From an archaeon (lineage in GTDB: Archaea; Aenigmatarchaeota; Aenigmatarchaeia; GW2011-AR5), in assembly GCA_035289025.1 (NCBI GenBank), contig DATDYJ010000045.1:1-26479 (forward strand): DNA of 26,479 bases. The letters are read 5' to 3'. Below are positions 6,001 to 12,000 of the stretch, in pieces. The stretch's first letter is position 1, and each line of letters opens with the position of its first letter. The position numbers were made by a program.

Positions 6001-9000
6001 TGCGAGATATGGGAGCGACCGCCGAAGGCGGCGTACAATGAATTGCAGGACGGCGATGCGCGCGGCATGGTCATCATAAGCGTCACAGGCGACAAGATAG
6101 TTGCCGATATCAACTCTCCGTCAGGCGAACCGCTAATCTCGATAGAAGGCGATAGCGCCAAAGAAGTTGCGAAGAAGATGACGAGTCTTGACCTGTTATC
6201 GCGCCCCGACCACTGGACAGACATAGGAATGGAGTTGCAGAAGGCCGAAATTGCAAAACGGCTTGGTGTAGCTTACAGCCAGGACAAACCGCTTAAATTG
6301 AATGATGTCATAGAATGACGTTGTTAAGAAATGGCTATTCTCATCACTAATCGTATTTGACTAAATTCAGAGAACCGGTCTACTTCCTGGCGTGCTTGAT
6401 CTTCATGGTCTTGACATTCATAACTTTGCCGCAGCTTTTGCACTTGGCAAGTATGCTCTTTCCTCTTTTTCCTCTTACTTTGAAATATTTTTCTTTGCAG
6501 CCTGTACAGACAAGTTCCCAGTCATATGCGTATTTTTTTGTTACCATTTTTTCGCCTATTTATCTATTCATTTCAGCCTTCTTAATGATTATTTCACGCG
6601 GTTTCAGGAGAATCAGTTCTTTTTCACAAAATCCCAAGTTTTATTAAAAATTTTATCTCGCCAATACTGTAAATTCTTTTTTAGCTTGTTCCTGATACGA
6701 TCTTAGTTTCTCTAGCTGATTCTCGTTTGGTGGATGTGTTGCCAGGTATTCTATCCCTTGATCGATGTCTGTTTCCAAAATTGGGGCTACAAGGCAATAA
6801 GAATTATTCAGGAATGCATTTGTCACAAATTCACCGCTTTCAACTCCGCGATCTTTGAAACGATCTGTATAATCATTATAACCAAGCGATATGTTTCTGC
6901 AATCTCTTAGAAAATCTAATGTATTCCGGCTAAAATACTCTGCAATCCCTTCCGCAATCATACTCTTTCTTAGAATTTCTCGTCTGTTCCTTAGGTCTTG
7001 TATATTCAAAGTAGAGTCTGAATTTAGTCCCTTTTGAAAACCTCTCAACTTGAGGAGGCTATCAGAATAGTAGTGTCCTAACTCGTGCGACAGAGACCTG
7101 TTGACACCTTTTTCACTGAAGTTTCTTCTGGAATATACCTTCATTGTGCCAGATTCCGAATCATAATCCGCTACTGCGCTTGAAGCTCCCGCCGGTCCTG
7201 AAAATACTGCTATTTGCGGAGCCCCAGAATATTTGATGCCCAATTTTTGTTCCTGTTGTGCCATTATTCTTGGCAAAGCTGTGTCAACATACTCTTTAAG
7301 ATTACCTTGGAATTCGCTCGTACATGCAGCCATAAGAACAAATAAGCTCAGAGTAGCTGATCTGATTAATTTCATGCTGGAGATAAAGCAGAATCTTATT
7401 TAAGTTACTATTTACCTGCAATCAGACCTTTTATTATCATCTTCGCGGCGCGCGGTATGTCCTTCTTCTTTATGGTGGACATATTCGCAAGGTAGTAAAG
7501 CTTTACGCGTTCGTCTGCCGTGTATTCCTTCGTGTCAAAGACGGGCTTTGGCCTTGCTCCTATATGGAAGCCCTCTTTCCAGTCGCGGTGCAGCCGCGTA
7601 TCAGGATCTTTCTTTATTTCTTCCCAGACTTCGGTGCCGGGATACGGTACAAGTATGCCCCACGACGCCGATATGCCGACCCGTTTTGCAAATTCTATTG
7701 ACCGTTTATCAGCATCGTAGCTGCTGCCAACAAGACCTATTATGAAAAATCCGTGAACCTTTATGCCAGCAGCCTTGGCCAGTTTTATTCCGCGCTCAAC
7801 ATCTTCCAGTTTTTCCCCTTTCTTTATCTTGTCGAATACAACAGGATCGCCGCTCTCAACGCCTATTGATATCGCGTAGCATCCCGCTTCCTTCATCAAT
7901 CCACATAGCTCTTCATCCAAGCGGTCAGCCCGTATGCCGTTCGGGCACGTCCACTTCATATCGAGTTGTTCGCGTATGAAGAGTCTGCATATTTCCTTTG
8001 CCCTGTCCATCTGTAGTGTGAAATTATCATCAAGCACTTTGAATTCCGTGCTGCCATAGCGTTCGCGCGCATACCTTAGTTCTTCCAGTATGTTCTCGCC
8101 AGAGCGTGTGCGGAATTTCCTTCCTATAACTGTAGGCACGTTGCAATTATTGACCAGGAAACCATTGGCAGTATATGTGTGGTCTTTGGCAACCTCTATA
8201 TTGTAAACTGTTCCAGAAAAGTCTTCGGACTCAATGCTTTCTACTGGAAAATAAACGGCATTCTCATCCCTGATCTCTATAGAACTTCTTCCGACAGTCA
8301 TATCCAGTTCCATTCCGAATATGCTACCTAGTAGCTGCATTACATCGCGTTTCGATTTGAAATTCAGGTGATAATTATATCCGCAAGACCTGACTTCCCG
8401 ACCGTCTATAAAGCTGTTGCCCATTGTATTTTTTTGCAGGCTTGGCGAAAGCCCGACTTTTTGAGATACAATAAAAAACTGATAAGCCAGAGAATCCGAT
8501 ACAGTAGAAGCCTTGATCATTTTCTTGCCTTCGTAATTGACGATTCCGCCGTCTCCTAGAATCCAACCCTTGAGCAATTCCGCAAGGAACTCTGGGTGAA
8601 ATGCCATCATAAATCCCGGTATTGATTTCTTGTCAGATCCTGACCCGAAAAGATTCTTTATTAGCAGCCCAATGATTGCATTAGAGACACAAATTCTTGT
8701 AACATTATTCTGATTCACTAGAAATGGCTCTATATCAAAAATTTCTCTTATAGTATTGCAAACGTCTTCGATATATGTGAGCTCATTTCTGTTAAATGTC
8801 CATGAAACCTCATAGCTATTGGGTCTGTTTTTACTCTTTGATACAGAACCCTCTGCAAGGTAATAGCCAAACAGCCTCATCAGGTTCTTGGATATTGGAA
8901 GTTTGGCTGGCACACTTCTTGAGAACTTGAAGCTTATTTTGTCGTTATTTATCTCAATTTTATTTTCAACCGTTTTCTTTTCCTTTAAATTACCATTTAT

Positions 9001-12000
9001 AGCTGTATGAACAAAGCTCTTGCTCAGCCCTGTTTCGGAGGCTATTTGTCTTGTAGAAAGGCCGCTACTATGAAGCTGGACAGCGAGTTTTATTTTTTCG
9101 TAAGGCACTTTTCTTGAATACTCGTAGAGAAGTGGGTATTCGCCGATTGTTTGCTTTACATCAATGAACTCTGAATGAACAGTTCTGGGGAGCTGTATGG
9201 TCAAATAGTCACCCGTTTGTATTTGCTCCGCGGGTGTTTCCATTTTTACGCCGTTCCTTAAGATGTGGAATTTATGATTTCCTGTCGTCTTGATGGAAGG
9301 CAATTTACGTGCCTTAATTTTTATCAACTTGCCATTGTAAGGTCTTTCGTAGAAACGTGCGACTGATACCCATTTGCCGGAATGTGAGAGAACCTTTGCG
9401 CCTTTTTTATCCCTAAGGTTCTCGATTTTTGTGAGCCCCTTATCCGTGTGAATAAGCGTTTCGCCGGGAAAACAGTACGTGCACGTGTACGGGCATCCGC
9501 GGCTTGTGACAAGCGGCCATACTTCGATTTTACCGTCCATCGAATCAAAGTCGTCGTATATCGGAAACTGCAGCGCGTCCAGGTTTGTGTCCCACTCCTT
9601 TGGGGCGTTCTTTATTATCTCCTCGCCGTTTCTGTATATGATTCCCTTTATCTCGGAAAGCGGCCTGCCGGACAAAAGTTCCTTGAACGTATGCTCGGCC
9701 TCGCCGAATACTGCTATGTCAAAAATAGTGTTCTCTTTCATCAGGTTGAGCCCGTCGACCATAACATGCGGGCCGCCGGCTATTATCTTTATGCCTGGAT
9801 TTATTTCCCGTATCATATTTGCTGCCATGATAGATTCGTCGAGCGTGAAAGATTTCATGGATATGCCGGCGAAGTCTGCGTCCCTGACTGCCTCGAGCCG
9901 CTCGTGAACATTGCCTGACTTGTTGACGAAATCGACAACCTTAACGGTGTGCTCTTGCCGTATTCCGGCGGCTATGTATGCCAGCCCGTTGTTCAGCCCT
10001 TCCCATACGCCTTTTGGGTCGACAAATACTATCTTCATATAAATCAGAACCTGTGAAATTAAACTAACACCCGATACTTCTTAAACATAATTCATCAATG
10101 CTGTTTTGGTACAAGCGTGGAAATGATATTGCTTAATAAGTTTTGCAAAAGAGTTCTGATAATGAAAATCGCTTTGTGCACTGAAATCATGTATCCCGTG
10201 TTCGGGGTAGAGCGGCGTGTTTTCGAGATGGCGAAAAGGCTGCCAAAGCACGGGTATGAGGTGGACCTGTACACGTCAACACCGCCTTCAGACATGGAAG
10301 GCTCGGGGCTGAATGTTATTCAGGTATCAGATTCCACGATAAAGAACCCACCTAAAAGAAACTATTTCAACTGTGTTGCATTTTGGTTAAATCTTTTTCG
10401 GAAGCTATCGGCAAGCAAGTGTGATATAATAGACGCTAACGGCCATATGTCGCTTTTGCCGTGCTCTTTAGCCGCGAAGATGAGAAACCGTGCATCTATA
10501 GCAACAATACACGACATGTACATAGGTGAGTGGCGTGGTATGTACAGCGGGATCATGGCGCTGCCCGGCGCGCCGTTCGAATTTTTCTCGGCGAAGATGC
10601 ATTTCGATAAGTTCCTGTGCGTAAACACAACGCTTAGGAGAAAACTCATAAGTATAGCCGGCATAGATGCCGGCGCCATAAGGGTTCTTCAGAGCGGTAT
10701 AGATACGAGATTCATCGACAAAATAAAGTCTGGAAGAAAGAAGCAGCGCATACTTTTTGTCAACCGTCTTGCCCCGCAGAAAAGCGCCGACACACTGATA
10801 AGGGCTTACGCCCGCCTCGATAAGGAGACACGTGATGAGTATGAACTGTGCGTAGTCGGTAAGGGCAGGGAACGTGAAAATCTCGAAGCGTTGGCGAAAT
10901 CCCTTGGTGTTGGTGTGAATTTCACGGGTTTTGTTAAAAGCGACGCAGATGTAATGAAAATGATGAAGGAATCTGAAATATTTGTACTGTCGTCAAGAAG
11001 GGAATCATTAGGTCTCAGCGTACTTGAGGCCATGTATTCGCGCTGCGCTGTCGTCTCCACAGCGTGTGACGGTCCAAGAGACTACATAGCGCACGGCCGC
11101 AACGGCCTTCTGACGGAAATAGGAAGTCCTGAAAGCATGACCCATGCCCTTACCCGTGCTATAGAAGACGGCAAACTGCGCAAAAGAATGCAGGCCAGCG
11201 CAAGACAGACTGCAAAAGGCTACGACTGGGATATTGTCGTAAAAAGAATCGCAGCCGTCTATGGTGAGATGCTATGATAGAGAATATAAAAACTAAAAAA
11301 CACAGCGAGGTGCGGAACGATTACGATAAGGCATACCGCTCTGGCACGCCTTTCCTTAACCCGGAATGGTTTATCCGAAGTGTCAAGAACATAGTTGACA
11401 AAAATACACACGGAAAAACGCTGCTCGATATAGGATGCGGTGACGGGCATTTTCTTTCTTACTTCAAAGGTTACAATCGCTACGGCATTGACCTCAGCAG
11501 AGAAGCTATCAAAAAAGCAAAAAGCCACGCGCAAGGTGAATTCCGCGTATCTTCTGCCGAGAAGCTCCCGTTCAAAGACAATTTTTTCCACGCACTTATT
11601 TGCATGGGCAGCATGGAGCATTTCATAGACATAGAAAGGTCGTTGCGTGAGATGAAGCGTGTCTCGAAGAAGGGTGCCGTTGTAGTGATCCACGTTCCCA
11701 ACTCGTTGTACCTCGTAAACCGTGTCCTTGGCATCGACACGCACCACCAGATAAACGAGCGTTTTGCCACGGAGGCCGAATGGAAGAAAATCATCTCTCC
11801 GTTCTTTTCGGTCGAGAAGACGGTAAAGTACAATACGAGATGGTATCTGAAACTGCTTCCCAAGAAGTACTCCTGCCATTTCACGTTCGTATGCAGGGCC
11901 TAAAGCTTGCGTGCGTAGCATACCATGCTTCCAGAAATATTCAGCTTTTCAAACAGTTTATAGTAGAAAAGTCGTGCATAATCAGCAGCTTTGGCTTTGC

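What the first reader, a model, noticed from the sequence alone, without database searches (positions are those of the whole stretch)
8143..9495. Intein splits the radical-SAM CxxxCxxC motif, and its C1 mimics the third ligand
Seen: the precursor reads C182-PYT-C186-TY-C189, where C189 is intein C1; the true third Fe-S ligand is C+1 (residue 632). Established: a similar insertion in Pyrococcus abyssi MoaA allows a C-3/C1 disulfide redox trap. Inference: splicing could be gated by oxidation or by premature Fe-S binding to the decoy motif, making a glycan-tailoring enzyme conditional on redox or iron state. Here the host is a B12-dependent radical SAM enzyme.
Basis: partly seen in the sequence, partly recalled or inferred. 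Interest (0 to 1): 0.62.

Follow-up and report, generated by a model that had tools for sequence, protein, structure and literature searches.

The report
Mobile intein splitting a radical-SAM cysteine motif
A self-splicing, mobile protein insert (an intein with its own DNA-cutting enzyme) sits just before the third iron-sulfur-binding cysteine of a sugar-pathway radical SAM enzyme in a tiny groundwater archaeon; it is real and intact, but inteins occupy this spot in many radical SAM enzymes, and the proposed redox or iron switch is untested.

Summary
The 876-aa ORF at window 7408-10038 (-) is a B12-binding-domain radical SAM (rSAM) enzyme. A 443-aa LAGLIDADG intein (residues 189-631) lies between Y188 and C632. 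The precursor reads C182-PYT-C186-TY-C189, and intein-less orthologues read CPYTCTYC-NVPTVIGRKF without a break.

The intein looks functional. Its splicing and endonuclease residues are invariant across diverged alleles, and pN is far below pS in every part.

The site is polymorphic. In this one genus I found 5 empty, 3 mini-intein and 2 full-intein alleles, and the window's gene is sister to an intein-less allele (91% identity).

Of the 111 best-matching intein relatives with both junctions resolved, 41-42 sit at this same rSAM site in many enzyme families. These include NCBI's curated "Tes, intein-containing" family.

The "decoy" motif follows automatically from a Cys1 intein landing before a Cys+1: all 116 relatives that could be scored start with Cys, whatever their site. 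Redox or Fe-S gating is chemically plausible, since reviews report a Cys-3/Cys1 disulfide in Pyrococcus abyssi MoaA, but nothing here tests it. The patchy distribution argues against a fixed regulatory role.

Verdict: a new member of a known kind. This scan reported the same kind before on other DNA (e1-1121923, e1-3799295).

The parts
7408..10038 (-). Precursor gene: a B12-binding-domain radical SAM enzyme interrupted by an intein (876 aa plus stop)
   Evidence: AF2 model with mean pLDDT 89.3.
9475..10038 (-). N-extein, residues 1-188: B12-binding Rossmann domain (16-122), linker, first barrel strand, and the first two motif cysteines
   Evidence: Pfam B12-binding 4.5e-13. Aligned to intein-less orthologues.
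9475..9495 (-). C182-PYT-C186-TY: the extein part of the CxxxCxxC motif. C186 is Cys-3 relative to the intein.
   Evidence: C182 and C186 are invariant in 87 sequences.
8146..9474 (-). Intein, residues 189-631 (443 aa), from Cys1 to the terminal Asn; the penultimate residue is Asn
   Evidence: Fold match to TliVMA intein at Z 33.0, PI-PkoII at Z 30.3, and mini-inteins at Z about 20 with rmsd 1.6-2.2 A. GC is 40.3% against 48.6-50.5% in the exteins.
9169..9474 (-). N-terminal splicing region, including block B (T252, H255 in IKTTGNHKFH)
   Evidence: T252 and H255 are invariant in 17 alleles. It is 35-43% identical to the mini-intein alleles.
8995..9099 (-). Helix-turn-helix-like insert (residues 314-348), probably an accessory DNA-binding module of the endonuclease
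   Evidence: Weak Pfam HTH_7, HTH_29 and HTH_23 hits at E 0.009-0.03, all below cut-off. Three helices in the model. S328, R330 and V343 are invariant.
8269..8901 (-). LAGLIDADG homing endonuclease domain. Motif 1 is at 8845-8883 (catalytic E396) and motif 2 at 8545-8583 (D496).
   Evidence: Pfam LAGLIDADG_3 1.7e-7. E396 and D496 are invariant. PDB PI-PkoII 5e-13. pN 0.18-0.22 against pS about 0.75.
8146..8268 (-). C-terminal splicing region, blocks F and G: VYN613, H620, then N630-N631
   Evidence: Invariant V611, Y612, N613, N631. NCBIfam intein_Cterm.
8143..8145 (-). C632: the +1 splicing nucleophile, and the true third [4Fe-4S] ligand after splicing
   Evidence: Invariant in 87 sequences.
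7411..8145 (-). C-extein, residues 632-876: the rest of the radical SAM barrel
   Evidence: Pfam Radical_SAM at 632-776. It is 97% identical to the intein-less P0002.
10117..11277 (+). Divergently transcribed GT4 glycosyltransferase (context): a conserved neighbour of the rSAM gene
   Evidence: Pfam. GT4 is adjacent and divergent in 13 of the 15 related loci, usually followed by the 360-aa gene and STT3/AglB.

Best explanation
This is an intact class 1 intein carrying a LAGLIDADG homing endonuclease. It is inserted in frame immediately before the third cysteine of the CxxxCxxC [4Fe-4S] motif of a class-B-type (B12-binding-domain) radical SAM enzyme. The host is an Aenigmatarchaeota (DPANN) archaeon, and the gene belongs to an N-glycosylation gene neighbourhood.

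Shown:
- the exact junctions;
- the existence of empty, mini-intein and full-intein alleles at the same DNA position;
- conservation of all splicing and endonuclease residues;
- purifying selection on the intein;
- the recurrence of related inteins at this site in many rSAM families.

Inferred: after translation the intein excises itself. The steps would be an N-S acyl shift at C189, trans-thioesterification to C632, cyclisation of N631, then an S-N shift. This joins Y188 to C632, so the enzyme can only then bind its cluster and become active.

Also inferred: the endonuclease keeps the element in the population by homing into empty alleles, and mini-inteins are its endonuclease-less derivatives.

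The site is favoured because it offers an invariant Cys+1 in a very conserved stretch of DNA shared by paralogues. The precursor's complete-looking CxxxCxxC is a by-product of a Cys1 intein landing before a Cys.
For: Junctions and domains.

Conserved residues in 17 alleles from three rSAM families: C1, T252, H255, E396, D496, VYN613, H620, N631, C+1.

pN is 0.07-0.25 against a saturated pS of 0.70 or more in every intein part.

Allele states:
- 15 Aenigmatarchaeota species genomes hold 9 empty, 4 mini and 2 full alleles.
- The window's own genus holds 5 empty, 3 mini and 2 full.
- The window's gene is sister to the intein-less P0002, with support 99 and 91% identity.

The mini-inteins are homologous to the splicing domain of the full intein. 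The intein GC3 is 42% against 53-64% in the exteins.

The intein alone finds 6155 proteins. Of the best 150, 111 have both junctions resolved, and 41 of those lie at C(x3-4)Cxx|C. That includes 20 of the 23 resolved hits in the top 25.

NCBIfam NF045703, 'Tes, intein-containing', has its intein at the same motif position.

The AF2 model gives a HINT plus LAGLIDADG fold at Z 30-33. Its two exteins together superpose on AprD4 at Z 30.5 over 389 residues.
Against: The penultimate residue is Asn rather than the usual His, and block F position 4 is Asn rather than Asp. Both are shared by the whole clade, and inteins without the penultimate His are known to splice (Chen, Benner and Perler 2000, listed in PMC4031507). 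Even so, splicing efficiency is unknown.

Intein and extein divergences correlate: r = 0.83 for the full inteins and 0.62 for the mini-inteins, Mantel p = 0.0004 for each. Much of the history is therefore vertical descent with repeated loss, and recent homing is not directly shown.

The model has low confidence at the junction: pLDDT about 62 for residues 181-190 and below 50 for 633-640.
Confidence: 0.85

Rival explanations
1. Redox trap layered on the mobile element. Under oxidising conditions C186 (Cys-3) and C189 (Cys1) form a disulfide. This blocks the first splicing step, so the oxygen-sensitive enzyme matures only in a reduced cell.
For: The C-x-x-C1 layout is present and is fixed by the host motif. 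Reviews state that the P. abyssi MoaA intein forms a native Cys-3/Cys1 disulfide that controls splicing, and that an engineered Ssp DnaE C-x-x-C1 trap works the same way. The AF2 model keeps the two exteins assembled in a native-like rSAM fold, which would place C182, C186, C1 and C+1 close together. That is a prediction, and confidence at the loop is low.
Against: There is no experiment. The layout follows automatically from the site, so it is no evidence of selection for a switch. Empty, mini and full alleles are mixed within one genus and scattered on the extein tree as if at random, so the host does well without the intein. The organism is presumably an anaerobe with a reducing cytoplasm (inference).
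Confidence: 0.2
2. Fe-S or metal decoy. The unspliced precursor binds an iron-sulfur cluster (or Fe/Zn) through C182, C186 and C189 and/or C632. This sequesters a splicing nucleophile and ties maturation to iron or cluster supply.
For: The precursor carries a complete CxxxCxxC with the usual aromatic residue before the third Cys. Four cysteines should cluster at the junction (a prediction). Inhibition of inteins by Zn and Cu bound at junction cysteines is established (papers listed in PMC4031507).
Against: I found no precedent for cluster binding by an intein precursor in the searchable literature. The residues after C1 are an intein beta-strand, not the rSAM helix that normally follows the third Cys. 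Cys1 is the default of the whole intein lineage, whatever the site.
Confidence: 0.08
3. Dead element. The intein no longer splices (Asn replaces the penultimate His, and Asn replaces Asp at block F position 4), so the gene is a pseudogene.
For: There are two non-consensus assisting residues.
Against: The frame is open over all 876 codons. Exactly these residues are invariant in alleles only 27-72% identical. pN is far below pS in both the exteins and the intein. The C-extein is 97% identical to an intein-less allele.
Confidence: 0.04

Closest known systems
Pyrococcus abyssi MoaA intein (Callahan et al. 2011, as summarised in PMC10663303 and PMC3922620)
   Same: The host is a radical SAM enzyme, the intein starts with Cys1, and an extein Cys lies at -3. 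In MoaA these two cysteines form a disulfide that blocks splicing until it is reduced.
   Different: The host family differs: a B12-binding-domain rSAM in a glycosylation cluster rather than a molybdenum-cofactor enzyme. I could not confirm that the MoaA intein lies in the N-terminal CxxxCxxC rather than in the C-terminal CxxC motif. The primary paper is not held, and a search for long MoaA forms was swamped by MOCS1 fusions. No redox data exist for the present intein.
NCBIfam NF045703, 'tetraether lipid synthase Tes, intein-containing'
   Same: It is a curated rSAM family with an intein at the third motif cysteine. This genome's own intein-less Tes homologue matches the profile up to C-DLT-C-WY-C/F and resumes from that same Cys. 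The window's protein aligns to the profile across the junction from intein to C-extein.
   Different: The host enzyme is different, and the score of 82 bits is far below the 1700-bit cut-off. The similarity lies mainly in the intein and the rSAM core.
Homing-endonuclease inteins with solved structures: TliVMA (7qsu, 7qss), PI-PkoII (2cw7), PI-SceI, PI-PfuI
   Same: The HINT splicing domain with a nested two-motif LAGLIDADG endonuclease. Z is 30-33 over 329-351 residues, and the sequence match to 2cw7 is 5e-13.
   Different: The hosts and sites are different (V-ATPase, DNA polymerase, RNR). Here the penultimate residue is Asn, block F position 4 is Asn, and there is an extra helix-turn-helix-like insert.
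Class B / B12-binding-domain radical SAM enzymes: AprD4 (6fd2), MgmA (9ccb), OxsB, CysS, TokK, TsrM; NCBIfam HpnJ
   Same: The host exteins have this architecture and fold. AprD4 scores 2.9e-26 by sequence and Z 30.5 by fold. HpnJ is the best NCBIfam hit. From my own knowledge, AprD4 and HpnJ both act on amino-sugar moieties, which fits the glycan context.
   Different: The host is below every equivalog cut-off (HpnJ 177 of 578 bits, AprD4 80 of 500). Its substrate, its reaction and any cobalamin requirement are unknown.

Membership tests
Class 1 intein (HINT domain) | An in-frame insertion that is absent from orthologues, with precise junctions | tested here: met
   The gap lies exactly between Y188 and C632 against six intein-less orthologues. 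The DNA insertion point is the same in 15 loci.
Class 1 intein (HINT domain) | Nucleophiles: Cys/Ser at position 1, a terminal Asn, and Cys/Ser/Thr at +1 | tested here: met
   C189, N631 and C632 are invariant in 17 alleles.
Class 1 intein (HINT domain) | Block B TxxH | tested here: met
   T252 and H255 are invariant.
Class 1 intein (HINT domain) | Penultimate His (an assisting residue, not obligatory) | tested here: not met
   The residue is Asn630. The close orthologous alleles have Asn or Ser, and 31 of the 42 rSAM-site relatives lack His. Inteins without this His are reported to splice (reference listed in PMC4031507).
Class 1 intein (HINT domain) | HINT fold | tested here: met
   The AF2 model matches mini-inteins at Z 18-20, with rmsd 1.6-2.2 A over 129-147 residues. 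Pfam Intein_splicing scores 55 bits against a 35.8-bit cut-off.
Class 1 intein (HINT domain) | Protein splicing activity | not testable with these tools
   Only indirect evidence: conservation and pN far below pS.
LAGLIDADG homing endonuclease | Two LAGLIDADG motifs, each ending in an acidic catalytic residue | tested here: met
   LFGYYLAEG (E396) and WILGDGG (D496), both invariant. Pfam LAGLIDADG_3 scores 31.8 bits against a 22.5-bit cut-off.
LAGLIDADG homing endonuclease | Cleavage of the empty allele (homing) | not testable with these tools
   Empty alleles with the conserved target exist. Activity is not assayed.
Radical SAM superfamily, B12-binding-domain class | A CxxxCxxC cluster motif within a Radical_SAM core | tested here: met
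   The motif is restored only after splicing. Pfam Radical_SAM scores 76 bits. Intein-less orthologues read CPYTCTYC.
Radical SAM superfamily, B12-binding-domain class | An N-terminal B12-binding domain | tested here: met
   Pfam PF02310 scores 49.5 bits against a 32.1-bit cut-off. The fold matches OxsB, TsrM, CysS and TokK at Z 19-27.
Radical SAM superfamily, B12-binding-domain class | Cobalamin dependence | not testable with these tools
   The nearest solved relative is AprD4, which from my own knowledge works without cobalamin.
HpnJ / AprD4 equivalogs (NCBIfam) | A score above the curated cut-off | tested here: not met
   HpnJ scores 176.9 bits against 577.6, and AprD4 80.2 against 500.
Redox-trap inteins (Pab MoaA type) | An extein Cys at -3 and an intein Cys1 (C-x-x-C1) | tested here: met
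   C186-T-Y-C189.
Redox-trap inteins (Pab MoaA type) | A reversible Cys-3/Cys1 disulfide that blocks splicing | not testable with these tools
   This needs biochemistry.
Redox-trap inteins (Pab MoaA type) | The same insertion site as in MoaA | not tested
   The primary paper and the P. abyssi sequence could not be obtained.

The most novel reading that the evidence does not exclude
The junction of this precursor gathers four cysteines: C182, C186, intein C1 and C+1. Splicing, and with it maturation of the radical SAM enzyme, would then depend on the cell being reduced, or on iron-sulfur or metal occupancy of the decoy motif. Because a whole lineage of related inteins sits at this same position in dozens of rSAM families, this would be a general post-translational checkpoint for oxygen-sensitive Fe-S enzymes, not a single curiosity.
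Probability: 0.12. Interest if true: 0.6.

Novelty: new member of a known kind. Interest (0 to 1): 0.3.

Why it matters
As it stands, this is a clean and well-documented example of the intein homing cycle. Full, mini and empty alleles coexist within one DPANN genus, at a site that a related intein lineage uses across many radical SAM families.

It matters mostly as material for experiment. The locus supplies matched natural alleles (full, mini and an empty one 91% identical) of an oxygen-sensitive Fe-S enzyme. With these, the redox-trap idea established for P. abyssi MoaA, and the untested idea of Fe-S or metal gating, could be examined with native exteins.

It also flags that automatic annotation of rSAM enzymes in DPANN and CPR genomes must allow for inteins inside the signature motif.

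Tried and rejected
1. Penultimate-His depletion as a site-specific adaptation. In the raw counts 11 of 42 rSAM-site inteins have His, against 52 of 69 at other sites (Fisher p = 5e-7). Phylogenetically independent pairs show no association (6 supported pairs, median p = 1). I rejected it as a clade effect.

2. Cys1 as a site-specific 'mimic'. All 116 relatives that could be scored start with Cys, whatever their site. Rejected.

3. Verifying the P. abyssi MoaA insertion site. Callahan 2011 and two related papers are not held. Literature searches for intein with MoaA or radical SAM gave only two reviews, neither with site detail. I then took a MoaA from a related genome and searched for longer forms, but the list was filled by eukaryotic MOCS1 fusions and held no intein-bearing MoaA.

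5. dN/dS. Synonymous sites are saturated, so only pN against pS could be reported.

6. Papers on an intein in tetraether synthase. None were found.

7. The AF2 model gives no coordinates to me, so Cys-Cys distances could not be measured.

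
Full report
**Observation.** Window 7408-10038 on the minus strand is one uninterrupted 876-codon ORF. Pfam finds an N-terminal B12-binding domain (residues 16-122, 4.5e-13), a Radical_SAM core split in two, an Intein_splicing domain (200-631, 9e-15) and LAGLIDADG_3 (483-538). NCBIfam adds intein_Nterm at 189-257 and intein_Cterm at 611-632. The cysteines are at 182, 186 and 189, and the insert ends N630-N631 followed by C632. Aligned with six intein-less orthologues of 433-440 aa, the protein shows a single gap between Y188 and C632. 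Those orthologues read CPYTCTYC-NVPTVIGRKF without a break, so C632 is the third cluster ligand.

**Organism and host gene.** The window is contig 45 of a 0.73-Mb, 65%-complete genome. The closest orthologues are labelled Aenigmatarchaeota, a DPANN lineage.

The host enzyme falls below every NCBIfam equivalog cut-off; the best hit is HpnJ at 177 of 578 bits. Its nearest solved relative is the aminoglycoside diol-dehydratase AprD4, at 2.9e-26 by sequence and Z 30.5 over 389 residues by fold. MgmA, OxsB, CysS, TsrM and TokK follow.

The gene is transcribed divergently from a GT4 glycosyltransferase. The window also holds GT2, methyltransferase, carbamoyltransferase and STT3/AglB genes. The order GT4, 360-aa gene, STT3 next to the rSAM gene recurs in most of the 15 related genome loci. 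A role in glycan modification is therefore a reasonable inference. Cobalamin dependence is not shown.

**Is the intein functional?** Seventeen intein-bearing proteins from three different B12-type rSAM families, 27-72% identical to the window's protein, share these invariant residues:
- C182 and C186;
- intein C1;
- T252 and H255 of block B;
- both LAGLIDADG acidic residues, E396 and D496;
- V611-Y612-N613 and N631; H620 is nearly invariant (at least 90% of the rows);
- C+1.

Against two other full-length alleles with DNA in hand, pN is 0.07-0.25 while pS is saturated at 0.70 or more. This holds in every part of the intein, including the endonuclease domain, and the values resemble those of the exteins.

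The AF2 model (87-sequence alignment, mean pLDDT 89.3, pTM 0.61) matches endonuclease-bearing inteins (TliVMA Z 33.0, PI-PkoII Z 30.3) and mini-inteins (Z about 20, rmsd 1.6-2.2 A).

Two assisting residues are non-consensus: Asn instead of the penultimate His, and Asn instead of Asp at block F position 4. Both are features of the whole clade. Splicing competence is thus well supported but inferred.

**Population picture.** Among 15 species-representative Aenigmatarchaeota genomes, 9 alleles are empty, 4 carry a 150-aa mini-intein and 2 carry a full intein. All are at the same TAY|TGY point. In the window's own genus the open frames indicate 5 empty, 3 mini and 2 full alleles, counting this one.

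On a tree of 70 exteins the three states need 20 changes, against a shuffled mean of 22.3. The window's gene is sister, with support 99, to the intein-less P0002 at 91% identity. The mini-inteins are homologous to the splicing domain of the full intein: 35-43% identity in the N-terminal part and 50-68% in the C-terminal part. Intein GC is 40% against 49-50% in the exteins.

Intein and extein identities nevertheless correlate (r = 0.83, Mantel p = 0.0004). The element has therefore mostly co-diverged with its host clade, with many losses or with homing among close kin. This is the classical homing cycle. It is not what a retained regulatory module would look like.

**The site is a hotspot.** A search with the intein alone against 1.84 billion cluster representatives found 6155 proteins at E of 0.001 or better. 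Of the best 150, 111 had both junctions resolved, and 41 of those lie at C(x3-4)Cxx|C of radical SAM proteins. That includes 20 of the 23 resolved hits in the top 25.

The hosts include:
- several B12-type families;
- proteins with the CQNxxIS signature after the motif (some labelled pyruvate formate-lyase activating enzyme);
- proteins labelled Patescibacteria and Falkowbacteria.

NCBI curates an 'intein-containing Tes' family. This genome's own intein-less Tes homologue matches that profile up to C-DLT-C-WY-C/F and resumes at the same Cys, which places that curated intein at the identical motif position.

Earlier notes of this scan reported the same kind of insert on other DNA. I treat those notes as leads that my own counts confirm.

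All 116 relatives whose alignment starts at residue 1 begin with Cys, whether at rSAM sites (42) or elsewhere (74). The +1 Cys is dictated by the host motif. The complete-looking CxxxCxxC in the precursor is therefore an automatic by-product and gives no evidence of selection for a decoy.

The Cys-3/Cys1 precedent is real: two reviews state that the P. abyssi MoaA intein forms this disulfide and that it blocks splicing until reduced. I could not verify that the MoaA intein lies in the same motif.

In the AF2 model the two exteins together superpose on AprD4 (model range 1-866). The precursor may therefore hold a nearly native barrel, with the intein looping out of the cluster loop. That would bring C182, C186, C1 and C+1 together, but confidence at the loop is low.

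A junction that rich in cysteines is chemically likely to respond to oxidants and metals. I rate in-vitro sensitivity as about even odds, a physiological redox switch at about 0.2, and Fe-S decoy binding at about 0.08.

**Verdict.** This is a genuine, intact, mobile intein at a recurrent and already curated type of site. It is a new member of a known kind. The conditional-splicing idea remains an untested hypothesis with a good experimental system attached.

Noticed in passing
G000 contig 31 (L002:1-2829:+, L003:254-2557:+): The genome's only other intein found with the Pfam intein model interrupts the tRNA ligase RtcB. It has a weak, sub-threshold LAGLIDADG hit.
   Followed up: partly
G000 contig 16 (L024:119-1933:-): The genome has an intein-less homologue of tetraether lipid synthase Tes, with the motif C-DLT-C-WY-C. 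NCBI's intein-containing Tes profile breaks exactly at that third Cys, so the same site carries an intein in other archaea.
   Followed up: yes
P0136, P0137, P0146, P0151: B12-type rSAM proteins, two of them labelled Patescibacteria/Falkowbacteria (CPR bacteria), carry a related intein at the same site (27-28% identity to the window's protein over the full-length alignment; 30-31% in the local alignments). Their first LAGLIDADG block is nearly identical (LFGYYLAEGxVSKxKNRPNS). Here the motif is CWWGxCxFC. This suggests intein exchange between DPANN archaea and CPR bacteria.
   Followed up: partly
window 8995-9099 (-): A three-helix, HTH-like module lies between the N-terminal splicing region and the endonuclease. 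It is conserved among alleles, and only weak sub-threshold Pfam HTH hits support it. It is probably an extra DNA-recognition domain.
   Followed up: no
window 8146-8214 (-) and relatives: The intein clade has Asn at block F position 4 (VYN). At rSAM sites it mostly lacks the penultimate His, showing S, G, A, K or N instead. The site association disappears once phylogeny is controlled.
   Followed up: yes
window 6653-7375 (-): The 240-aa ORF downstream of the rSAM gene has a lipoprotein-like N-terminus (…LMAAC) and an HELGH zinc-protease-like motif. Its only Pfam hit is a faint Peptidase_M48 match (E 0.009).
   Followed up: no
window 12757-15299 (-) and L005-L019: A 360-aa gene with no Pfam hit always lies between GT4 and STT3 in related genomes. 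An earlier scan note (e1-5303773) reads the pair as a two-gene split AglB.
   Followed up: partly
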